A stretch of DNA of 64,000 nucleotides, taken from Candidatus Aenigmatarchaeota archaeon (lineage in GTDB: Archaea; Aenigmatarchaeota; Aenigmatarchaeia; CG10238-14). The notes under the pieces were generated by a model. It made no database searches. It was not told where the DNA came from and saw nothing but the letters and a program-made list of their open reading frames with translations. The position numbers and the translations under genes are program-made. The stretch spans positions 407,033-471,032 of the forward strand of contig JASEGC010000001.1 of the NCBI GenBank assembly GCA_030018415.1, in the 5' to 3' direction. Below are positions 13,162 to 57,017 of the stretch, piece after piece; position 1 is the first letter of the stretch; every line of letters starts with the position of its first letter.

Positions 13162-15444
13162 TTGCCCAAAAAAGAAATAACAGAAAGAATATTAGAAGTA
13201 ATGAAAGATCCAACAAGAATCAGAAACATCGCAACATCCTCGCAATAGAATTAGTACCACGCTAATTCTACGAGATTGTCCACCATGGTAAAACAACACT
13301 TACAGATAATTTAGCAATGTTGGCAGGAATGATTTCAGAGAAAGTAGCAGGTGACGTAGAGAAAGGAATGCTTACGTGGTTTGACGAAAGGTTAAATTAA
13401 CCCGTTAACAGGAACGTAAGCGTCAGCTAACCATCTACGGCGCAAATAAAAAAGCGTAAACGTTTCGATGGTTCATGAGTATGAGGGAAAGGATTATTTA
13501 ATAAATCTCGTTGATACACCGGGGCATGTCGACTTCGGCGGGGACGTAATTAAAACACGTTAAACCCGTGCGATGCGAGCGGTCGATGGAACTATAGTTC
13601 TAGTGTGTGCTGTAGAAGGAATAATGCCTCAAACAGAAACAGTGTTCAGACAAGCGTTAAGAGAAAGAGTGAAACCTGTTCTCTTCATCAACAAGGTTGA
13701 TAGGTTAATAAAAGAGTTAAAACTGACGCCAGAATCGATGCAGAAAAGGTTTGAAGATATTATTCGAGATGTTAACATCATCATCCAAAAATATGTAGAG
13801 GAAAGATACAAGGAAAAATGGCTTGTCAGTGTAGCAGAAGGAACGGTAGCTTTCGGCTCTGCGTACAGGAAATGGGCCATATCGATTCCTTTCATGCAGA
13901 AGACTGGTATCAATTTCAAAGATATAATAGACATGGTTAACCAAGGCAGAGATGAAGATTTAGCAAAAAAGGCACCCCTACATCAAGTCGTCCTCGACAT
14001 GATAATCAAACATCTACCGAATCCTTTGGAAGCACAAAAGTACAGACTAGAAAAGGTCTGGAAGGGTAGTTTGAGTACAGATGTAGGGAAGGACATGCTT
14101 GCTTGTAATCCGGACGGAAAGTTAGCGATGATCGTCACAAAAATGGTTCCTGATCCTCACGTAGGGTTTGTCGCAACTGGAAGATTATTCTCTGGAAAAA
14201 TTTTTAAGGGTAAAAATGTTCGATTGATAGGCCTACATAAGACTGAAAAAATACAGCAAGTTGCCATCTATAAAGGAATAACGAGAATTCCTGTAGAAGA
14301 AGTTACAGCTGGCAACATAGCTGCTGTCGTTGGTATCTCAGATGCTTTCACTGGAGAGACTGTCTGCGACGCAGAACAAGTCATCGAGCCTTTTGAAGCA
14401 ATAAAACACATTTTTGAGCCAGTCGTCACCAAAGCAATAGAACCGAAGAATCCGATGGACCTGCCGAAATTGATAAATGCATTGAAAAAGATAGGTAGGG
14501 AGGACACAACACTCCAAGTCAAGATTAACGAAGAGACTGGAGAGTACCTTGTCTCTGGGTTAGGAGAGTTACACCTAGACGCAAAAGTAGAGAGAAAACT
14601 AAAAGAAATGGGTATAGAAGTTGAGGCTTCTCCACCTATTGTAGTATACAGGGAAACTATTGCAACAAAGTCTCGTGTCATAGAGGGCAAATCACCGAAC
14701 AAACACAACAAATTCTATTTCTTCGTCGAACCACTACCTGAAAATGTAATTGAAGCCATGAAACTTGGTGACATACCTTCTGATATTGAAATAAAGAAGA
14801 AGAATATTGAACTACAGAAAAAACTTTCTGTTTTGGGAATGAACTACGAAGATGTGAAGAACATACTGGTTATCCATAGAAAAAACATGCTCATCGACAG
14901 AACTAAGGGAATACAATACTTGAACGAAGTTATAGAAATGATAAAAGAAGGTTTTGTCAGCATAATAGAAGAGGGACCTATGTCGAGGGAACCTTGCGTT
15001 GGTTTGAAAGTTGTATTGACAGATGCTGAGTTGCATGAAGATCCTGTTCATAGAGGACCAGGTCAAGTTTTACCGGCCGTGAAGTATGCGATCAGAACTG
15101 GAATGATGGATGCTGGAATCGTCTTGATGGAACCAAAGCAGATGATCAGGATTGATGTGCCCACAGAATTGATGGGTGGGGTATTAAGAGAGGTTCAAAA
15201 TAGACGAGGAAAGATCCTCGACATATCAGAAGAAAAAGGGGCGTCAATTCTTCAAGCAAAAGTACCAGTCGCAGAAATATTTGGTTTTGATGCAACTTTA
15301 AAATCAATCACAGGTGGGAAAGGTTTTTATAGTTTGATAGATGTTATATTTGAGAAGTTGCCCAGAGAATTACAGGATCAGACAGTCATAAAGATCAGGA
15401 AAAGAAAAGGTCTGAGTGAGAAGATACCAAAAATAGAAGAATAA
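13162..15444 (+). CDS. fusA: translation elongation factor 2 (aEF-2), coding region interrupted by four putative BHB mini-introns
   Basis: Exons are 13162..13244, 13277..13388, 13409..13445, 13460..13548 and 13564..15444, totalling 2202 nt (733 aa). Conserved blocks are [32 protein letters not shown] and NKVDRLI, and the C-terminal 623 aa are intact (ORF track 13573..15444). Unspliced, the 5' part hits stops at 13246, 13398, 13457 and 13561. Confidence 0.85.
13245..13276 (+). other. aEF-2 putative BHB intron 1 (32 nt)
   Basis: Central helix CTCG(13239..13242)/CGAG(13271..13274). 3-nt bulges CA|A and AT|T. Perfect 9-bp inner helix 13246..13254/13262..13270 with a 7-nt loop. Splicing joins ca|t into a His codon, giving ...IATSSHVHHGKTT. 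Confidence 0.7.
13389..13408 (+). other. aEF-2 putative BHB intron 2 (20 nt)
   Basis: Central helix GACG(13383..13386)/CGTT(13403..13406). Bulges AA|A and AA|C. Inner 4-bp helix GGTT(13390..13393)/AACC(13399..13402). Splicing joins FDE to QERKRQLTI. Confidence 0.7.
13446..13459 (+). other. aEF-2 putative BHB intron 3 (14 nt)
   Basis: Central helix GCGC(13440..13443)/GCGT(13454..13457). Bulges AA|A and AA|A. Outer helix ACG(13437..13439)/CGT(13461..13463). Splicing joins a|ac into an Asn codon, giving YGAN-VSMVH. Confidence 0.65.
13549..13563 (+). other. aEF-2 putative BHB intron 4 (15 nt, in frame, contains TAA)
   Basis: Central helix GACG(13543..13546)/CGTT(13558..13561). Bulges TA|A and AA|A. 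5-bp outer exon-exon helix 13538..13542/13565..13569. Splicing joins GGDV to TRAMRAVDG. Confidence 0.7.
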
Positions 15445-37870: not shown

Positions 37871-37903
37871 TAATTATTATTTGCTTTATTAGAATAAAAA
37901 GTG

Positions 37904-37989
37904 TGCGGGAGGTGGGATTTGAACCCACGAAGGCACTAAGCCACTGACTCCTGAAGCCAGCCCTTTAGACCAGACTTAGGTACCCCTGC
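37904..37989 (-). tRNA. tRNA-Leu(CAG), class II, no intron
   Basis: Minus strand reads GCAGGGG-TA-...-CTGGC-TTCAGGA-GTCAG, long variable arm GGC-TTAGT-GCC, then GTGGG-TTCAAAT-CCCAC-CTCCCGC-A. One A3:C70 mismatch in the acceptor stem. Confidence 0.85.
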
Positions 37990-40056: not shown

Positions 40057-40123
40057 GTCTTTAAAACTAACTGTAAAAAGATTTAAAACCTTCTAATTGA
40101 GTAGAAATTAATTGAGTGATACT

Positions 40124-43100
40124 ATGAAGCAAAACTTACTCGTCCTTGACGTGGACTATATCGTCGAAGGAAACAAAGCTATAACAAGGCTTTTTTGCAA
40201 AGACGAAAAAGGTAAAACAGCCCTTGTTATGGATTCTAATTTCGAACCTTATTTTTACGTTATGCCAACTAAAGGAACTCTTGAAAAATTGAAGAAAAAA
40301 ATAGAAGGACTTGACACAAAAAACTTAGAAGCGAAAATCCTGAGGGTAGAGACTGTTGAAAAGAATTGGATGAACGAAGAAACAAAGCTGATTAAAGTTA
40401 CCATCGATAACCCTAGGAGGATTCCAGATGTGAGGAATGCGATAAAAGACTGGAAAGAAGTAGAAGAAACTTACGAGTATAACATCACCTATTACCGCAG
40501 GTACATGATAGATAAACAAATCAAACCAATGGGTTGGGTCGAAGTAGAAGGAGAATTAAAAGAGAGCAACGGATACCAAGTCGATAGAATCATCGAGGCC
40601 AGTTCTGTCAAAGCTACAGACATGGAAAAAGATATCGATTTCAAAGTCTTAGCTTTCGACACAGAGTTCGTCGAAGAAGATGGGAAATCAAAGCTCATCA
40701 TGCTCAGCCTAGTTTTCGATGGAAAATACAAGAGAGTCTTAACTAGCTGCGACTGGAAGGATAAACCGAATTATGTCGAGGTTGTAAGAGATGAGAAAGA
40801 GATCATCCAAAGATTCATGGATATAGTTAAGGAAAAAGACCCAGATTTCATAGTCGGTTACAATTCTGACGGTTTTGACATCCCAAAGATAAAGGATAGA
40901 GCTACGGTATACAAGATGCCTTTGAAGTTGGGAAGAGATAATACCCCTGTCCATGTTGTCAGAAGAGGAAGGATCAGTTCTGCAAAAACTAAGGGAAGGG
41001 TACATATCGATTTGTTCAATTTCATTGATCACATTCTATCTGCTTCTATGCGTAGCGAGGTTTTAACTTTAGATGAAGTTGCTCAAGAATTGCTTGGAAT
41101 TGGAAAGAGGAAAATGAAATACAAGGAAATGGTTGAGATATGGAGCAAAAAAGAACAATTAGGAAGGCTTGCTGAATATTCGCTTTGGGATTCGGAGTTG
41201 ACGCTGAAATTAGCTGAGCATATATTGCCACAGATATTTTCGATAAGCAGGTTAACTGGTTTGCTGCCCTTCGATGCTTCGAGAAATACATACTCTCAAC
41301 TGATTGAGGCATTCTTGATGAGAAGGGCTTTTACAGATAATGTCTTGATTCCAAACAAGCCAAAAACCGAAGAGATAGAGAGAAGAAGGATGGCTCCTGT
41401 TTATAAGGGAGCGATAGTAATCGAGCCTAAAAAAGGAATTCATTCAGATATTTTAGTTTTCGATTTCAGGAGTCTTCCTCCTTGGGAAAAAACTTACGTG
41501 AAAGACCCAGCTGGCTTTATAAAAGTAGTGGAGATAGGCAATTTTGTAGAAAGGTTCCAGAAGAACGGAAAAGTGATCAGAGAAAGCAGAAGCCTTATAA
41601 CTGAATTAAATGGCTGGAAAGCCCTTACTTTCGATGAAGAGAAAAACAAAGTTTGTTGGAAGCCTATTAAAGCAGTCATCAAGCATGAAATTAAATGCCC
41701 TTATTTATTGAAGATCACGACTGAACAAGGCAAACAAATAACGATAACGCCGAATCATAGCATTTTTTCCCTCGATAATGACGGAAAACTAACTCTAGTA
41801 AGAGGAGATGAATTAAGGATCGGAACGAATCTCATACTTCTGAAAAGGATTCCGGTTAGGGAAAATTTAAAGAAATTAGATGTTATGGAACTCTTATCAT
41901 CTCTTTCTCAAAAAATAACGTCAGACTTGTTGATCATTCTTCCAAGGAAGAAACTTCCTCACAAAAAAAGGCTTAAAACTTGGATGAACATCCTAAACGA
42001 ACTGAGAGGGGCCTCTTCGTTAGAAGAGTTGCGCGAGAGGCTTAAGTATCATAGGGCAACGATTAGGAAGAACCTTGTATTGCTGAGAAGGAAGGGATTG
42101 ATAGATTACAGAAATTATAGTGGAATAAAACTCCTTCAAGAAGGAGAGAATTATTTGAAGTTTGTTCTAAACCTTAGACCAACGAGAAAGCGAGGGTTTC
42201 TGCAAGCAAGGTTTAACGACATTAAAAACATTAACGTACCGGAGAAGTTAAAGAAAGACTTATTCCTTAAACAATCAAGAGGAAGATGGAAGAGGATTCT
42301 ACCTTGTGTATTAGAGTTAAACCGTAATACTTGTTGGAGTTTTGGAATTTACGTAGCAGAGGGTTGGATGACTAAACATTCGAGGATCTATTTTTCCACT
42401 TCGGATGAACTCATCAAAAATAGACTGTTAAGAACCCTCTCTTACTTCGAACCGAGTGAATATAAGGATGGGAAGGGTTTTGAAATTTCCATCTCGAACA
42501 AGCCCTTTGCTCTTCTGCTCATCAAACTTTTTGGGCATAATTCCCATCATAAGCATCTTAATCCTTTGCTCTTACAGTTACAGAAAAACCTGAAATTAAA
42601 GTTAATAGAAGGAATGATAGATGGTGATGGCTCTATTGGAGAAACGAAATTTAAATACACCTCTATCTCTGAGAGGTTGATCGATGACTTGAATTTATTA
42701 CTTCTCTCGTTGAGTGTGGGAAGAACATCTTTCATAAGTTCCGGAAAAATAAAGAACCTTTACGTTTACCAGTCACTTGGAAAGATAAAGATAAGAAAAG
42801 GTGTAAGGGAGAGTCATCCACTCTATCTCATCCCAAGGAATTATGTAGAGGATCATATAACATCAACTCTTAAAAATGCACATCGAGGTTCACGAATCGA
42901 TATTCAGAAAGTTGCAGAAAATCTAGTAATCAATGGATGTTTTCCCGAAAAATTAAAATTCTTCTTTGGAAATTGTGGTTTAGAACAGATTAAAAAAATC
43001 GAGAGAATTAAGTATAACGGTTGGGTTTATGATATTTCTGTGAAAGATACTGAAAAATTCTTCGCTGGGAATGGTCTGATATTAGTACATAACTCGTTGT

Positions 43101-43546
43101 ACCCCACGATAATCGTTTCCCACAATATTTCTCCAGAAACTCTTAATTGTGAGCACTCAGAATGTAAAGAAAAAAATAAAGTTCCCGAAAGCAAATGGCA
43201 TTTTTGCACCAGAAAGGAGGGCTTCATACCTAAACATATAAGAGACCTAATCGAAACGAGGAAGAAAATAAAGGAAAAGATGAAAGAGGTTAGAAAGGAT
43301 TCGGTGGAATGGAAGCGGCTGGACAATGAGCAGTATGCTCTAAAAATTTTAGCCAACGCGAGCTATGGTTTTATGGGATATATAGCCGCTAAATGGTATT
43401 GTCGGGAGTGTGCAAGCGCAACTGCGACATTTGGAAGAGCTTATATAACCAAGGTAATAGAGATGGCAAAAGCAAGTGGATTTAAAATTTTGTATGCTGA
43501 CACCGATTCTTGCATGGTAACTATAGAAAAAAGGGGGAGAAAATGA
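40124..43546 (+). CDS. polB: family B DNA polymerase, N-terminal polypeptide (exonuclease plus palm motifs A-C), contains an intein
   Basis: Exo motifs LAFDTEF, YNSDGFDIPKI and YSLWDSELT. Motif A DFR|intein|SLYPTII. Motif B KILANASYGF. Motif C ILYADTDS. Stops 11 codons after motif C. The ATG at 40124 is preferred over the TTG at 40112. Confidence 0.9.
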   Translation: MKQNLLVLDVDYIVEGNKAITRLFCKDEKGKTALVMDSNFEPYFYVMPTKGTLEKLKKKIEGLDTKNLEAKILRVETVEKNWMNEETKLIKVTIDNPRRIPDVRNAIKDWKEVEETYEYNITYYRRYMIDKQIKPMGWVEVEGELKESNGYQVDRIIEASSVKATDMEKDIDFKVLAFDTEFVEEDGKSKLIMLSLVFDGKYKRVLTSCDWKDKPNYVEVVRDEKEIIQRFMDIVKEKDPDFIVGYNSDGFDIPKIKDRATVYKMPLKLGRDNTPVHVVRRGRISSAKTKGRVHIDLFNFIDHILSASMRSEVLTLDEVAQELLGIGKRKMKYKEMVEIWSKKEQLGRLAEYSLWDSELTLKLAEHILPQIFSISRLTGLLPFDASRNTYSQLIEAFLMRRAFTDNVLIPNKPKTEEIERRRMAPVYKGAIVIEPKKGIHSDILVFDFRSLPPWEKTYVKDPAGFIKVVEIGNFVERFQKNGKVIRESRSLITELNGWKALTFDEEKNKVCWKPIKAVIKHEIKCPYLLKITTEQGKQITITPNHSIFSLDNDGKLTLVRGDELRIGTNLILLKRIPVRENLKKLDVMELLSSLSQKITSDLLIILPRKKLPHKKRLKTWMNILNELRGASSLEELRERLKYHRATIRKNLVLLRRKGLIDYRNYSGIKLLQEGENYLKFVLNLRPTRKRGFLQARFNDIKNINVPEKLKKDLFLKQSRGRWKRILPCVLELNRNTCWSFGIYVAEGWMTKHSRIYFSTSDELIKNRLLRTLSYFEPSEYKDGKGFEISISNKPFALLLIKLFGHNSHHKHLNPLLLQLQKNLKLKLIEGMIDGDGSIGETKFKYTSISERLIDDLNLLLLSLSVGRTSFISSGKIKNLYVYQSLGKIKIRKGVRESHPLYLIPRNYVEDHITSTLKNAHRGSRIDIQKVAENLVINGCFPEKLKFFFGNCGLEQIKKIERIKYNGWVYDISVKDTEKFFAGNGLILVHNSLYPTIIVSHNISPETLNCEHSECKEKNKVPESKWHFCTRKEGFIPKHIRDLIETRKKIKEKMKEVRKDSVEWKRLDNEQYALKILANASYGFMGYIAAKWYCRECASATATFGRAYITKVIEMAKASGFKILYADTDSCMVTIEKRGRK
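41471..43093 (+). mobile_element. intein (541 aa) with LAGLIDADG endonuclease domain, inserted in PolB motif A
   Basis: Begins with Ser after VFDFR and ends ...LILVHN before SLYPTII. Block B is TPNHSIF. LAGLIDADG motifs are FGIYVAEGW and LIEGMIDGDGS. Confidence 0.85.
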
Positions 43547-43863
43547 ATTGGAAAGAATTTTTAAAACCAGACTGGAGAAAAATCCTAGTTTTCGTGATTT
43601 CAATAATCATGGGCATTGTTGTTACTCATCCCTTAATCTACCCAGAATACTCTTATTCTTTCCCTTTCCTTCCATTACCTTTTGAGACTGTAGAGATAAG
43701 AGCTGTCCCCTGCCCTCCTGGTGCCCATGAACGTATACCAGGCGTAATACCAGATTGTATGGAAAGTGTTATCATTCTCCAGAATATTCTATTAAATCTT
43801 GTTAGTTATTATCTCATCTCCTGTCTCATAGTTTGGATTTACGATAAGGTGAGGAAGAAATGA
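43543..43863 (+). CDS. small membrane protein (106 aa) occupying the gap between the two PolB polypeptide genes
   Basis: ATGA overlaps at both ends: ATG 43543 overlaps the PolB-N TGA at 43544..43546, and its own TGA at 43861..43863 overlaps the PolB-C ATG at 43860. Two hydrophobic helices flank a Cys/Pro-rich loop (VPCPPGAHERIPGVIPDC). Confidence 0.5.
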   Translation: MNWKEFLKPDWRKILVFVISIIMGIVVTHPLIYPEYSYSFPFLPLPFETVEIRAVPCPPGAHERIPGVIPDCMESVIILQNILLNLVSYYLISCLIVWIYDKVRKK

Positions 43864-44555
43864 AGAAAAGAGAGCAATTAATTAAAAAGGCTGAAGAATT
43901 TATAGAAAAAGTTAACGAACAACTTCCAGGAATAATTGAACTAGAATTCAGAGACCTGTATGAAGGGGGGATATTTGTAGCAAGAAGGGAAAAAGAAGTT
44001 GGAGCGAAGAAAAGATATGCTCTAATTGATTATCAAGGGAATTTAGAAGTCAGAGGATTCGAAGCTATAAGAAGAGATTGGTGCCAGTTAAGCAAGGACA
44101 TACAAAGAAAAGTTCTGACTATAATCCTTAGAGATAAAGACCCTGCTAAAGCCGTTCAACTAGTCAGAGAAACAATTAAAAAAATAAAAAGTGGGGATGT
44201 GAAGTTGGAAGACCTAACGATTTTTGAACAGATAACAAGGCCTCTATCTTCTTACGAACAGATAGGACCGCACGTTAAGGCAGCTCAGAAATCAAAGGCC
44301 AAGGGCAGACTTGTGGGCGAGGGTAGTGTCATCGGTTTTGTCATAGTCAAAGGTTCGGGTAGTATTTCAGATCGTGCCATGCCGGTTGAAGACGTAAAAG
44401 AAGGAGAGTACGACCCAGAATATTATATCAACAACCAAGTCTTACCAGCAGCGATGCGCGTTCTACAGGCTTTAGAGATAACAGAACAACAAGTTTTATC
44501 TGGAAGAGTCCAGGCTAAGTTAGGAGAATGGTTTAAAAAAGTTAACTACAAGTAA
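43860..44555 (+). CDS. polB: family B DNA polymerase, C-terminal polypeptide (thumb domain)
   Basis: EFIEKVNEQLPGIIELEFRDLYEGGIFV...KKRYALID...VRGFEAIRRDWC...ITRPLSSYEQIGPHVKAA...YYINNQVLPA aligns colinearly with the region after motif C of archaeal PolB. Confidence 0.85.
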   Translation: MKKREQLIKKAEEFIEKVNEQLPGIIELEFRDLYEGGIFVARREKEVGAKKRYALIDYQGNLEVRGFEAIRRDWCQLSKDIQRKVLTIILRDKDPAKAVQLVRETIKKIKSGDVKLEDLTIFEQITRPLSSYEQIGPHVKAAQKSKAKGRLVGEGSVIGFVIVKGSGSISDRAMPVEDVKEGEYDPEYYINNQVLPAAMRVLQALEITEQQVLSGRVQAKLGEWFKKVNYK

Positions 44556-55636: not shown

Positions 55637-56638
55637 CTATAATTTTTTCTCTAATCTTTCCACTAGATTTAATTTTTCTTTTAATTTGTTCTTCAATATT
55701 GCGATATTTTCAGTTTGTTCTGGATCAACATTATTCAGAACCGCCAACTCATAACTTAGAATATCGCCTAAGAACACCAGAAACATCATTCTTGCCAATT
55801 TTGACTTTCCTTCAGTCCATATCTCTTCTATTCCTTTAACTTTATCTTTTATCAAGTCTTTGGTAATCTCTATCCTTGCTTTAATCTCTTCTTGTTCGTC
55901 CTTATCCCTCAGTATTAGAACAAAAGAATTCTTGTTCAATCTTTCATTCTGATAACCGACTATTTCATTATGATCTAACTCAGGAAAAAAATCATATTTT
56001 GCAGGCATTTTACTGTTTTCGTTTATCTGAGTCTTGACTCTCTTTGCTACACCAGAAAACTCATCAGAAGAATAAATAACAATCGTAGAATCCTTCATTG
56101 AAAGGGCTAGTTTTTTAATAGAATCAGTCTTTATTCTTTTTAATAATTCGATTGTTTCATCTATTTCTTTCTGTAAATTTATTGATCTGAGTTTCTGTAA
56201 GCATGCAATCATAGTAAAGAACAAGTAAGGCAAGGCTATACGAGGCTGATAGCCAGTTGGAATTAAAATACAAGGTAAATTAAACTTCCCACACCATTCC
56301 TTTAGTTTACCGCCAGAAGTTATCCCGATTATTTTACATTTCTTTTCAACAGCCTCGACGAATTGACTTAAGGTTTCTTCCGTATTCCCAGAATAACTAA
56401 TACAAAAAGTGAGTGTATTTTCATCAACATAAGCAGGCAGATGATAATCCCTGCAAACATCAATAGGTACAGAAATTCTGTTTTTTAACAAGTCTCTTAG
56501 TAAATCACCACAAATAGCAGAACCACCAACGCCACAAACGATTATTTTGTCAAATTTATAATAAGGAATATCAGTCTTTTCAGCTTTTTTTACAGCATCT
56601 AAATACATTTCAGGATATTTTTTTATGATTTCTATCAT
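55637..56638 (-). CDS. bifunctional phosphoglucose/phosphomannose isomerase (SIS domain)
   Basis: IIVCGVGGSAICGDLL and ISYSGNTEET. About 330 aa, typical of archaeal PGI/PMI. Confidence 0.75.
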   Translation of the reverse strand: MIEIIKKYPEMYLDAVKKAEKTDIPYYKFDKIIVCGVGGSAICGDLLRDLLKNRISVPIDVCRDYHLPAYVDENTLTFCISYSGNTEETLSQFVEAVEKKCKIIGITSGGKLKEWCGKFNLPCILIPTGYQPRIALPYLFFTMIACLQKLRSINLQKEIDETIELLKRIKTDSIKKLALSMKDSTIVIYSSDEFSGVAKRVKTQINENSKMPAKYDFFPELDHNEIVGYQNERLNKNSFVLILRDKDEQEEIKARIEITKDLIKDKVKGIEEIWTEGKSKLARMMFLVFLGDILSYELAVLNNVDPEQTENIAILKNKLKEKLNLVERLEKKL

Positions 56639-56715
56639 TGCTTTTCACAAACAATTAAGATAACTTAAAATATTAAAAAATGCCCTTGTCGGGATTCGAA
56701 CCCGAATCACAGGCT

Positions 56716-56728
56716 TGCTGCTATCCAA
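56716..56728 (-). other. 13-nt BHB intron at the canonical 37/38 position of tRNA-Arg
   Basis: Intron TTGGATAGCAGCA. Central helix CTGC/GCAG (index 47-50 / 60-63), bulges GG|T and CA|A. The outer helix is the anticodon stem. Confidence 0.75.
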
Positions 56729-56736
56729 CCGCAGGC

Positions 56737-56749
56737 TTATACACGTGTT
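56737..56749 (-). other. 13-nt BHB intron inside the anticodon-stem 5' strand (between tRNA positions 29 and 30) of tRNA-Arg
   Basis: Intron AACACGTGTATAA. Central helix ATAC/GTAT (tRNA index 26-29 / 39-42), 9-nt loop, junctions 2 nt 3' of each strand (AG|A and AA|G). Confidence 0.7.
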
Positions 56750-56858
56750 CTGTATCTTATCCAAGTTGGACCACAAGGGCAACGATAAACTATTTAAAAG
56801 ATATAATCCCTAAGAAGAAAATACTTAATAAAATCTTAAAGGTGTTGGATTGGCAGAA

Positions 56859-57017
56859 ATGAAATGTACGAGTTGTGGGTTGAACCTTTTAGGTGATGAT
56901 AAATACGTTGGGTTTAAATGTCCAAATTGTTTAAAAGTAGAGATATTTAGATGTTCACGCTGTAAGAGATTATCTACTGAATATTCATGTCCGAGCTGCG
57001 GTTTTAAGGGTCCATGA
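56859..57017 (+). CDS. small zinc-ribbon protein (52 aa)
   Basis: MKCTSCGLNL...FKCPNC...FRCSRCKRL...YSCPSCGF has four CxxC pairs. ATGA overlap with the downstream EF-1beta gene. Below the ORF-track cutoff. Confidence 0.6.
   Translation: MKCTSCGLNLLGDDKYVGFKCPNCLKVEIFRCSRCKRLSTEYSCPSCGFKGP

What the first reader, a model, noticed from the sequence alone, without database searches (positions are those of the whole stretch)
56681..56780. tRNA-Arg(GCG) with two 13-nt introns, one splitting the anticodon-stem 5' strand
The 100-nt gene folds into a normal 74-nt cloverleaf only after two 13-nt segments are removed. One is AACACGTGTATAA, between tRNA positions 29 and 30. The other is TTGGATAGCAGCA, at the canonical 37/38 site.

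Both show the same module: a 4-bp helix closing a 9-nt loop, a 5' junction 2 nt into the loop, and a 3' junction 2 nt past the helix. Splicing gives the perfect anticodon arm CAGGC-CTGCGGA-GCCTG.

I derived the junction rule on this gene and then applied it to aEF-2. Thirteen nt is near the lower size limit I know for archaeal introns. A site inside the stem implies a relaxed-specificity endonuclease.
Basis: seen in the sequence. Interest (0 to 1): 0.7.

Follow-up and report, generated by a model that had tools for sequence, protein, structure and literature searches.

The report
Two-intron arginine tRNA gene, archaeal
This is a real arginine tRNA gene from a tiny uncultured archaeon (Aenigmarchaeota), interrupted by two 13-base mini-introns of a known relaxed archaeal type, so it is a new example of a known thing; its main value is that the same cutting rule also repairs an essential protein gene nearby.

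Summary
Window 56681..56780 (minus strand) is a tRNA gene: Rfam tRNA scores 37.0 bits against a threshold of 29, with 37 nt where the model expects 11 in the anticodon arm.

Removing AACACGTGTATAA (tRNA 29/30) and TTGGATAGCAGCA (37/38) leaves a 74-nt tRNA-Arg(GCG). Its anticodon arm, CAGGC-CUGCGGA-GCCUG, is identical to the arm of intronless archaeal tRNA-Arg(GCG) genes. Relatives carry a tRNA-Arg(GCG) at the same syntenic position.

Each insert has a perfect 4-bp helix exactly where the archaeal bulge-helix-bulge rule requires it. Of 19 ways to delete segments and get a valid anticodon arm, this is the only one with both helices. The chance of both is about 2e-5.

Five metagenomic orthologs keep both introns, with variable loops, preserved helices and compensatory exon changes. 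Other close relatives have none, or have introns at other positions.

The motif is the known relaxed hBH/BHL form, and 29/30 is a published non-canonical site. This is therefore a new member of a known kind. The endonuclease type could not be determined, because endA is not in the window.

In passing: tRNA-Asp in this window also has two introns. The aEF-2 gene has four 14-32-nt inserts that the same rule removes exactly.

The parts
56681..56780 (-). Complete tRNA-Arg(GCG) gene, 100 nt as a precursor and 74 nt after splicing. No CCA is encoded.
   Evidence: Rfam RF00005 37.0 bits against GA 29. An Arg(GCG)-specific covariance model built only from intronless genes hits here best in the window, 37.3 bits. 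ARAGORN calls the spliced sequence tRNA-Arg(gcg).
56750..56780 (-). Exon 1: tRNA nt 1-29 (acceptor 5' strand, D arm, and the first 3 nt of the anticodon stem, CAG).
   Evidence: Read from the sequence. The D arm is nearly identical to that of intronless Hadarchaeota tRNA-Arg(GCG).
56737..56749 (-). Intron 1, AACACGUGUAUAA, 13 nt, between tRNA positions 29 and 30.
   Evidence: The junction placement cannot slide (read from the sequence). This is the only deletion combination with full helices. The intron is present with a variable loop of 11-15 nt total length in L018, L022, L023, L026 and L024.
56729..56736 (-). Exon 2: tRNA nt 30-37 (GC of the anticodon stem, then C32 U33 G34 C35 G36 G37).
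   Evidence: Invariant in all orthologs.
56716..56728 (-). Intron 2, UUGGAUAGCAGCA, 13 nt, at the canonical 37/38 site.
   Evidence: Hadarchaeota L008/L011 carry a 16-nt intron at the same site ending GCAGCA/GCAGCG. Orthologs have 10-13 nt versions.
56681..56715 (-). Exon 3: tRNA nt 38-73 (A38, anticodon stem 3' strand, 4-nt variable loop, T arm, acceptor 3' strand, discriminator A).
   Evidence: Compensatory changes occur at acceptor pair 6:67 and T-stem pair 49:65 among orthologs.
56752..56755 (-). Helix H of intron 1, exon strand AUAC (tRNA 24-27). It overlaps two D-stem pairs.
   Evidence: Pairs with GUAU at 56739-56742. 23 of 24 cells are paired across 6 sequences. It is part of the RNAfold MFE structure.
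56739..56742 (-). Helix H of intron 1, intron strand GUAU, followed by AA and then the 3' cut.
56731..56734 (-). Helix H of intron 2, exon strand CUGC (tRNA 32-35, including the first two anticodon bases).
   Evidence: Pairs with GCAG at 56718-56721. 24 of 24 cells are paired, with one-sided changes U-A to U-G (3 sequences) and G-C to G-U (1 sequence). The geometry is as described in PMC4090602.
56718..56721 (-). Helix H of intron 2, intron strand GCAG, followed by CA and then the 3' cut.
56800..56806 (-). TATA-like box TTATATC, 20-26 nt upstream of tRNA position 1, inside a conserved upstream block.
   Evidence: The block GG(G/A)TTATATCTTTT is conserved upstream of the syntenic tRNA in L018, L019, L027, L031 and L033. 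Its promoter function is inferred.
56675..56680 (-). T6 run immediately after the discriminator base, a likely archaeal terminator.
   Evidence: Read from the sequence. Its function is inferred.

Best explanation
This is the functional tRNA-Arg(GCG) gene of a Candidatus Aenigmarchaeota (DPANN) genome.

**Proposed mechanism.**
- It is transcribed as a roughly 100-nt precursor whose anticodon region forms two tandem bulge-helix-loop (relaxed BHB, hBH-type) modules.
- In each module, four exon nucleotides lying 3 to 6 nt upstream of the 5' junction pair with four intron nucleotides lying 3 to 6 nt upstream of the 3' junction.
- The archaeal splicing endonuclease (EndA) cuts two nucleotides 3' of each helix strand. 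An RNA ligase then joins the three exons.
- Intron 2 is at the canonical 37/38 site. Its helix uses C32-C35, and its outer helix is the G30-C40/C31-G39 part of the anticodon stem.
- Intron 1 is at the non-canonical 29/30 site. Its helix uses nt 24-27, so two D-stem pairs must be open when it is cut.

**Shown.** The gene, the junctions, the helices and their conservation, and colinearity of the spliced product with intronless orthologs.

**Inferred.** The actual cleavage and ligation, the enzyme, and the order of removal.
For: **It is a tRNA.** tRNA model scores are. The spliced cloverleaf is tRNA-Arg(GCG).

**The junctions give the right mature sequence.**
- The anticodon arm CAGGC-CUGCGGA-GCCUG is identical in 14 archaeal tRNA-Arg(GCG) genes, 12 intronless and two with only a 37/38 intron.
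- Those two, from Hadarchaeota, have a 16-nt intron at 37/38 with the same GCAG+CA end.

**Organism and synteny.**
- The organism was identified through a 100% identical neighbour protein named as an Aenigmarchaeota MAG protein.
- The gene order Pus10-L21e-RpoF-DUF655-EF1beta-tRNA-PGI is conserved.
- The syntenic tRNA-Arg(GCG) is intronless in L019, L027, L029 and L033. It has other intron sets in L016 and L031. It has the same two introns in L018.

**The two-intron form is conserved.**
- Four more two-intron orthologs came from separate metagenome contigs.
- 99.3% of helix cells are paired. Intron loops vary in sequence and length while the helix and bulge positions are kept. Compensatory changes occur in the acceptor and T stems.

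**Not chance.** The chance of both helices is about 2e-5. The solution is unique among 19 possible deletions.

**The rule works elsewhere in the window.**
- It restores tRNA-Asp(GUC).
- It restores a gap-free aEF-2.

**Literature.**
- 29/30 is a known site and the helix geometry matches (PMC4090602).
- A 13-nt hBH/BHL intron was cleaved in vitro (PMC3239211).
- DPANN EndA variants carrying an extra loop are linked to disrupted tRNA genes (PMC5829648).
Against: - There are no RNA data, so splicing is not shown.
- endA is not in the window, so the enzyme type and its specificity loop are unknown.
- Intron 1 has at best a 1-bp outer helix (C31-G23), and its central helix competes with the D stem.
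- The RNAfold MFE includes the intron-1 helix but not the intron-2 helix. RNAfold also misfolds the spliced tRNA, so this carries little weight.
- All helix changes in the introns are one-sided (to G-U). The exon strands are fixed, so there is no true double covariation inside the intron helices.
- The divergent ortholog L024 has only 3 of 4 pairs in the intron-1 helix.
Confidence: 0.9

Rival explanations
1. It is a decaying tRNA pseudogene that has picked up two short insertions. The apparent helices are coincidental.
For: Default tRNA finders miss it. Intron 1 lacks a convincing outer helix and disrupts both the anticodon stem and the D stem.
Against: - The two-insert architecture is kept in six distinct sequences from different samples.
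- Helices are preserved, loops vary, and there are compensatory exon substitutions.
- The upstream TATA-like block is conserved.
- It sits in the single syntenic tRNA-Arg(GCG) slot.
- The joint chance of the two helices is about 2e-5.
- An essential gene in the same window, aEF-2, needs the same rule to be readable.
Confidence: 0.04
2. The junctions lie elsewhere and the product is a different tRNA. ARAGORN offers tRNA-Gly(GCC), by shifting intron 2 two bases, and tRNA-Tyr(AUA), with a 6-nt intron and a long extra arm.
For: ARAGORN with its intron option returns these folds on the partly spliced or unspliced sequence. In all, 19 deletion schemes give a formally valid anticodon arm.
Against: - Only the Arg(GCG) scheme has 4/4 pairs at both rule positions. 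The Gly(GCC) scheme has 2/4 for intron 2.
- The loop CUGCGGA and the D arm match intronless archaeal tRNA-Arg(GCG) genes.
- Syntenic orthologs are tRNA-Arg(GCG).
- From general knowledge, anticodon AUA and a long variable arm are not features of archaeal tRNA-Tyr.
Confidence: 0.02
3. One or both segments are kept in the mature RNA, giving an unusually structured tRNA or tRNA-like RNA rather than a spliced one.
For: No RNA evidence is available. The intron-2 loop plus G36 G37 is complementary to D-arm nt 10-17 over 8 bp and appears in the MFE fold.
Against: - Keeping intron 1 breaks the anticodon stem. Keeping intron 2 puts 13 nt inside the anticodon loop.
- Close relatives carry the same tRNA without the segments.
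- Both segments carry the recognised endonuclease motif at the exact register (PMC4090602).
Confidence: 0.03

Closest known systems
ARMAN-2 (Ca. Micrarchaeum) pre-tRNA-Cys(GCA) with a 13-nt hBH/BHL intron at 59/60, cleaved in vitro by the epsilon2 EndA (PMC3239211)
   Same: It is a DPANN archaeon with a 13-nt intron. The motif is relaxed: a 4-bp helix and one bulge, with the other splice site in a loop and no inner helix h'.
   Different: The position differs (T loop rather than the anticodon stem and 37/38). Here two such modules sit side by side, 8 nt apart. The enzyme type here is unknown.
Multi-intron tRNAs of Thermoproteales, e.g. Pyrobaculum islandicum tRNA-Pro(UGG) with introns at 25/26, 37/38 and 56/57 (PMC4090602)
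   Same: A canonical and a non-canonical intron occur in one tRNA gene. The motifs are BHB or relaxed BHB, and intron gain is evolutionarily recent.
   Different: Those are Crenarchaeota with an (alpha-beta)2 EndA. No similarity between introns of different tRNAs, as reported for Thermoproteales (PMC4033280), was looked for here. Here one syntenic gene varies between 0, 1 and 2 introns among relatives whose neighbour protein is 68-84% identical.
Introns and gene splits at 29/30: listed among known non-canonical intron sites, and the split site of Caldivirga maquilingensis tRNA-Ala(CGC/UGC) (PMC4090602)
   Same: The break point is the same, inside the 5' strand of the anticodon stem. The central helix is therefore forced to use nt 24-27.
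   Different: The Caldivirga cases are trans-spliced gene halves. Here it is a 13-nt cis intron in tRNA-Arg of a DPANN lineage.
Methanopyrus kandleri pre-tRNA-Glu(UUC) with a canonical intron plus a relaxed D-loop intron (PMC5829648)
   Same: Two introns in one precursor, one strict or canonical and one relaxed. The experiments suggest the canonical intron is removed first.
   Different: The second intron is in the D loop, of HBh' type. That enzyme lacks the specificity loop and cuts the relaxed site poorly.

Membership tests
tRNA (Rfam RF00005) | Score at or above the curated gathering threshold, with all four arms | tested here: met
   37.0 bits against 29, covering model positions 1-71. ARAGORN draws a cloverleaf for the spliced 74-mer.
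tRNA-Arg(GCG) isoacceptor | Anticodon loop CUGCGGA in a body homologous to known archaeal tRNA-Arg(GCG), at the orthologous locus | tested here: met
   The anticodon arm is identical in 14 archaeal tRNA-Arg(GCG) genes, 12 of them intronless, and the D arm is near-identical to that of the Hadarchaeota genes among them. Syntenic orthologs are tRNA-Arg(GCG). It is the best window hit of an Arg(GCG)-only model.
Archaeal BHB-type intron (any form) | Central 4-bp helix between exon nt -6..-3 of the 5' junction and intron nt -6..-3 of the 3' junction, with cuts 2 nt 3' of each strand | tested here: met
   AUAC/GUAU and CUGC/GCAG, all Watson-Crick. Kept in orthologs. The geometry is as in PMC4090602.
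Strict hBHBh' motif (required by classical alpha4 / alpha'2 EndA) | Two 3-nt bulges, each flanked by helices (outer h and inner h') | tested here: not met
   Neither intron has an inner helix h'. Both 5' splice sites lie in a 9-nt hairpin loop.
Relaxed hBH / BHL motif | Outer helix h, then a 3-nt bulge holding the 3' site, then the 4-bp helix, with the 5' site in the closing loop | tested here: met
   Intron 2: the outer helix is G30-C40 and C31-G39 (plus 27-29/41-43 beyond intron 1), the bulge is C-A-A38, the helix is CUGC/GCAG, and the loop is 9 nt.
Relaxed hBH / BHL motif | The same features, for intron 1 | tested here: inconclusive
   The helix AUAC/GUAU, the A-A-G30 segment and the 9-nt loop are present. 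The outer helix is at most C31-G23 (1 bp), and nt 24-25 must leave the D stem.
Known non-canonical intron positions | The insertion site has been reported before in archaeal tRNAs | tested here: met
   29/30 is listed among known sites, and 37/38 is the canonical site (PMC4090602).
EndA substrate in vivo | The genome encodes an EndA with broad specificity (alpha-beta2, epsilon2, or alpha4 with the L3 loop), and the RNA is cut and ligated | not testable with these tools
   No tRNA-intron endonuclease domain was found among the 50 window ORFs scanned, which include all non-nested ORFs of at least 110 aa except the two polymerase-sized ones of over 1,100 aa. No RNA data are available.

The most novel reading that the evidence does not exclude
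The tRNA may be one visible piece of a lineage-wide expansion of endonuclease-spliced micro-introns (10-32 nt, mostly helix-loop type) in Aenigmarchaeota.

- These introns turn over between close relatives. The same syntenic tRNA-Arg has 0, 1 or 2 introns, at three different sites.
- They have spread into an essential protein-coding gene. aEF-2 in this window carries four such inserts, and the tRNA-derived rule removes each one exactly.
- If so, archaeal mRNA splicing by the tRNA endonuclease would be far more common in this lineage than the single classical cbf5 case.
Probability: 0.7. Interest if true: 0.8.

Novelty: new member of a known kind. Interest (0 to 1): 0.4.

Why it matters
**The gene itself.**
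- It adds a documented example of a double-intron tRNA, with one intron inside the anticodon stem, in a DPANN phylum that none of the archaeal tRNA-intron papers I consulted analysed (PMC5829648 only names Aenigmarchaeota).
- It shows why standard tRNA finders under-count tRNAs in such genomes. Default ARAGORN and Rfam at gathering threshold both missed it.

**Wider value.**
- The gene supplies a clean, comparatively validated cutting rule.
- It comes with a set of near relatives that carry different intron complements. This is a natural series for studying how archaeal introns are gained and lost.
- The same rule makes four interruptions of the essential aEF-2 gene readable. This points to endonuclease-dependent mRNA splicing beyond the classical cbf5 case.

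Tried and rejected
- **Default tRNA searches.** ARAGORN and Rfam at gathering threshold on the whole window both miss the gene.
- **ARAGORN with its intron option.** On the precursor and on half-spliced forms it gives tRNA-Tyr(AUA) and tRNA-Gly(GCC). I rejected these on helix register and on ortholog identity.
- **Genome-collection scan with a gapped exon pattern.** No species-representative genome has the two-intron form. The scan did supply intronless and single-intron comparators.
- **Custom covariance model from intronless Arg(GCG) genes.** It finds the locus but skips the 37-nt insert as one local gap, so it cannot place the junctions.
- **Thermodynamic folding.**
  - The MFE contains the intron-1 helix but pairs the intron-2 loop with the D arm.
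  - A fold with both helices is 4 kcal/mol above the MFE.
  - The spliced tRNA is itself misfolded by the predictor, so energies are not decisive.
- **Search for endA.** Five Pfam batches covering 50 ORFs found none.
- **Published minimum archaeal intron length.** I could not find a figure. Searching for positions written with a slash was not possible, so I searched with the phrase 'position 29' instead.
- **'Partial' aEF-2 proteins of relatives on long contigs.** I suspected further introns, but in L035 the break is a run of N.
- **D-loop insert of L031/L032.** It has no 4-bp helix at the rule positions and remains unexplained.

Full report

The finding's coordinates are exact, but the gene is on the minus strand. 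Default ARAGORN and Rfam at gathering thresholds on the whole window report only a tRNA-Leu at 37903-37989.

A sensitive Rfam scan of 56600-56860 finds RF00005 at 56681-56780(-). It scores 37.0 bits against a gathering score of 29, covers the full model, and places 37 nt where the model expects 11 in the anticodon arm.

The two quoted 13-mers are at gene positions 32-44 (window 56737-56749) and 53-65 (window 56716-56728). Deleting both leaves 74 nt, which ARAGORN draws as a normal tRNA-Arg(GCG) cloverleaf with anticodon arm CAGGC-CUGCGGA-GCCUG.

In standard numbering the first insert lies between positions 29 and 30 and the second between 37 and 38. Neither junction can slide, because the flanking bases differ.

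**2. Is it more than chance, and are the junctions right?**

| | Intron 1 | Intron 2 |
|---|---|---|
| Exon strand of helix | AUAC (tRNA 24-27) | CUGC (tRNA 32-35) |
| Intron strand of helix | GUAU | GCAG |
| Loop closed by helix | 9 nt | 9 nt |
| 5' junction | after AG | after GG |
| 3' junction | after AA | after CA |

This is the register of the archaeal bulge-helix-bulge motif. [quoted passage not shown]

Two tests argue against chance.
- Shuffling each insert gives P = 0.004 and 0.005 for four Watson-Crick pairs at the required positions, jointly about 2e-5.
- An exhaustive enumeration found 19 ways of deleting one or two segments to leave a 5-bp stem and a 7-nt loop with U33. The next best is tRNA-Gly(GCC), the alternative ARAGORN offered, and it has 2/4 for the second helix.

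**3. Independent evidence from other genomes.**

A gapped exon pattern scanned over species-representative genomes returned 15 archaeal tRNA-Arg(GCG) genes from Hadarchaeota, Methanobacteriota/Thermoplasmata and Micrarchaeota MAGs.
- Fourteen have an anticodon arm identical to the predicted spliced arm. The D arms of the Hadarchaeota genes are near-identical.
- Thirteen are intronless.
- Two Hadarchaeota genes carry a 16-nt intron at 37/38 ending GCAGCA or GCAGCG, like intron 2 here.

The neighbouring phosphoglucose/phosphomannose isomerase is 100% identical to a protein of an NCBI 'Candidatus Aenigmarchaeota archaeon' MAG on a 610-kb contig. It has many homologs at 45-84% identity.

Contigs encoding those homologs keep the gene order Pus10-L21e-RpoF-DUF655-EF1beta-tRNA-PGI. 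The syntenic tRNA is always tRNA-Arg(GCG), but its intron content varies.

| Loci | Neighbour protein identity | Introns in the syntenic tRNA-Arg(GCG) |
|---|---|---|
| L019-021 | 76% | none |
| L027/28, L029/30 | 81% | none |
| L033/34 | 68% | none |
| L016/17 | 84% | one 14-nt D-loop intron (helix AGUC/GACU) |
| L031/32 | 79% | a 13-nt D-loop insert plus a 12-nt 37/38 intron |
| L018 | 82% | the same two introns as the window |

A metagenome scan requiring an insert at 29/30 found four more two-intron orthologs: L022, L023, L026 and the more divergent L024.

Across these six sequences:
- Intron loops vary in sequence and length. Intron 1 is 11-15 nt and intron 2 is 10-13 nt.
- The helix strands and the two bulge bases before each 3' cut are kept.
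- 99.3% of the cells of the proposed structure are standard pairs, against 34-42% when partners are slid.
- The intron-2 helix shows U-A to U-G (3 sequences) and G-C to G-U (1 sequence).
- Acceptor pair 6:67 and T-stem pair 49:65 show true compensatory changes.

A conserved upstream block containing TTATATC lies 20-26 nt before position 1. A T6 run follows the discriminator base. Together these argue for an expressed, selected gene rather than a pseudogene or an assembly artefact.

**4. What it is and how it most likely works.**

The precursor's anticodon region is two tandem helix-loop modules 8 nt apart.

*Intron 2* is a textbook relaxed 'hBH', also called bulge-helix-loop (BHL).
- The outer helix is G30-C40 and C31-G39.
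- The 3-nt bulge is C-A-A38.
- The 4-bp helix follows.
- The 5' splice site sits in the 9-nt closing loop, with no inner helix.

*Intron 1* has the helix, the A-A-G30 segment and the loop. Its outer helix is at most one pair (C31-G23). Its helix uses nt 24-27, so D-stem pairs 10:25 and 11:24 must be open at the time of cutting. That is unavoidable for any intron at 29/30.

I infer that EndA cuts two nucleotides 3' of each helix strand and that an RNA ligase (RtcB-type in archaea, from general knowledge) joins the exons.

The order of removal is unknown. In M. kandleri pre-tRNA-Glu the canonical intron goes first (PMC5829648).

RNAfold puts the intron-1 hairpin in the MFE structure. A fold containing both helices lies 4 kcal/mol above the MFE. 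RNAfold also misfolds the spliced tRNA, so energies are not decisive.

**5. The same rule works elsewhere in this window.**

*tRNA-Asp.* A weak Rfam hit at 885-975 is a 102-nt tRNA-Asp(GUC) gene at 874..975(+).
- It has a 13-nt intron in the D loop (896-908; helix GGUC/GGCU).
- It has a 16-nt intron at 45/46 (933-948; helix CCUG/CGGG).
- The spliced 73-mer is a normal tRNA-Asp to ARAGORN, while the precursor is not recognised.

*aEF-2.* The aEF-2 gene (13162..15444) is broken four times in its first 400 nt. The rule predicts these introns:

| Coordinates | Length | Motif |
|---|---|---|
| 13245-13276 | 32 nt | strict BHB with a 9-bp inner helix |
| 13389-13408 | 20 nt | helix-loop |
| 13446-13459 | 14 nt | helix-loop |
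| 13549-13563 | 15 nt | helix-loop |

Removing them gives a 2,202-nt open frame. Its first 232 residues align to P. horikoshii aEF-2 (5h7k, E = 4e-98) with no gap at any junction. They also align at 87% identity with zero gaps to an uninterrupted Aenigmatarchaeota homolog.

This independently validates the junction rule in this genome. It is the most interesting thing I saw, but it is a separate finding.

**6. Comparison with what is known.**
- Non-canonical and multiple tRNA introns are well described in Thermoproteales, Nanoarchaeota and ARMAN/Micrarchaeota (PMC4033280; PMC4090602).
- 29/30 is in the published list of insertion sites. It is also the split point of Caldivirga tRNA-Ala.
- A 13-nt hBH/BHL intron in ARMAN-2 was cleaved in vitro by its epsilon2 EndA (PMC3239211).
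- PMC5829648 reports that several DPANN lineages have alpha4-type EndA with an extra 'L3' loop, associated with many disrupted tRNA genes.

The strict hBHBh' definition is not met, because there is no inner helix. The relaxed hBH/BHL definition is met for intron 2 and only partly for intron 1.

No endA domain was found among the 50 window ORFs scanned, which include all non-nested ORFs of at least 110 aa except the two polymerase-sized ones of over 1,100 aa. I could not reach the rest of the contig.

**7. Verdict.**

The object is a new member of a known kind: a double-intron tRNA-Arg(GCG) in an Aenigmarchaeota genome.

Thirteen nucleotides is short but has precedent. The relative L024 has 11- and 10-nt versions.

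The gene on its own deserves modest interest, which I score at 0.4. It gains value as the calibration case for the micro-intron rule and for the fast intron turnover seen at one syntenic locus.

**Unexplained points.**
- The 8-bp complementarity between the intron-2 loop (with G36 G37) and D-arm nt 10-17. A U-to-C change in L023 and L026 strengthens it, and it is absent in L024.
- The L031/L032 D-loop insert looks like a tandem copy of the D arm and has no helix at the rule positions.

Noticed in passing
window 13162..15444 (+); inserts at 13245-13276, 13389-13408, 13446-13459, 13549-13563: The aEF-2 gene is interrupted four times in its first ~400 nt by inserts of 32, 20, 14 and 15 nt. Each has a 4-bp helix at the BHB register; the first is a strict BHB with a 9-bp inner helix. 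Removing them gives a 733-aa open frame. Its N-terminus aligns without junction gaps to P. horikoshii aEF-2 and at 87% with zero gaps to an uninterrupted Aenigmatarchaeota homolog. In the paper library, only cbf5 turned up as an archaeal protein-coding BHB intron.
   Followed up: yes
window 874..975 (+); introns 896-908 and 933-948: A second two-intron tRNA, tRNA-Asp(GUC), 102 nt. It has a 13-nt intron in the D loop (helix GGUC/GGCU) and a 16-nt intron at 45/46 (helix CCUG/CGGG). The spliced 73-mer is a normal cloverleaf. Rfam scores the precursor just below threshold (27.8 against 29) and mis-sets its 5' end at 885.
   Followed up: yes
L016/L017, L018, L019-021, L027-030, L031/032, L033/034 (syntenic tRNA-Arg upstream of PGI): The same syntenic tRNA-Arg(GCG) has 0, 1 or 2 introns, at three different sites (D loop, 29/30, 37/38), among relatives whose neighbour protein is 68-84% identical. 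This indicates rapid intron gain and loss. In L018 a 445-aa ORF is inserted between the tRNA and PGI.
   Followed up: partly
L031/L032, D-arm region of the syntenic tRNA-Arg (about 115 nt upstream of PGI): The 13-nt D-loop insert TGTCTAACGGAAA is a near-tandem copy of the preceding D-arm sequence GTCTAACGGATA. It shows no 4-bp helix at the rule positions, unlike the L016 insert (AGUC/GACU). This may be a hint that some of these inserts arise by local duplication.
   Followed up: partly
window 56723-56730 vs 56764-56771 (minus strand: G36 G37 + intron 2 nt 1-6 vs tRNA nt 10-17): GGUUGGAU is complementary over 8 bp to D-arm GUCCAACU and appears in the RNAfold MFE. Orthologs L023 and L026 have C instead of U, turning G10-U into G10-C. 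The pairing is absent in L024. Intron 2 (UUGGAUAGCAG) also resembles the D loop (UUGGAUAAGAU). This could be shared ancestry or a precursor conformer that frees nt 24-25 for the intron-1 helix.
   Followed up: partly
window 40112..44555 (+): Family-B DNA polymerase is split just after its YADTDS motif. A 1144-aa ORF (40112-43546) is followed by a 117-aa ORF with no Pfam match (43510-43863). A 231-aa ORF carrying the C-terminal part of the DNA_pol_B domain (43860-44555) then follows, with its own ATG and a GGTGA-like ribosome-binding sequence upstream. I did not determine whether this is a split gene or a long intervening element.
   Followed up: partly
L024 (metagenome contig Ga0190363_1047141), 954-1011: A divergent ortholog carries even shorter inserts at the same two sites: 11 nt (AGCUAGUAGAA, only 3 of 4 helix pairs) and 10 nt (AAAUGUGGAA, helix CUGC/GUGG with two G-U pairs). 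These are shorter than the 13-nt example I found in the literature.
   Followed up: partly
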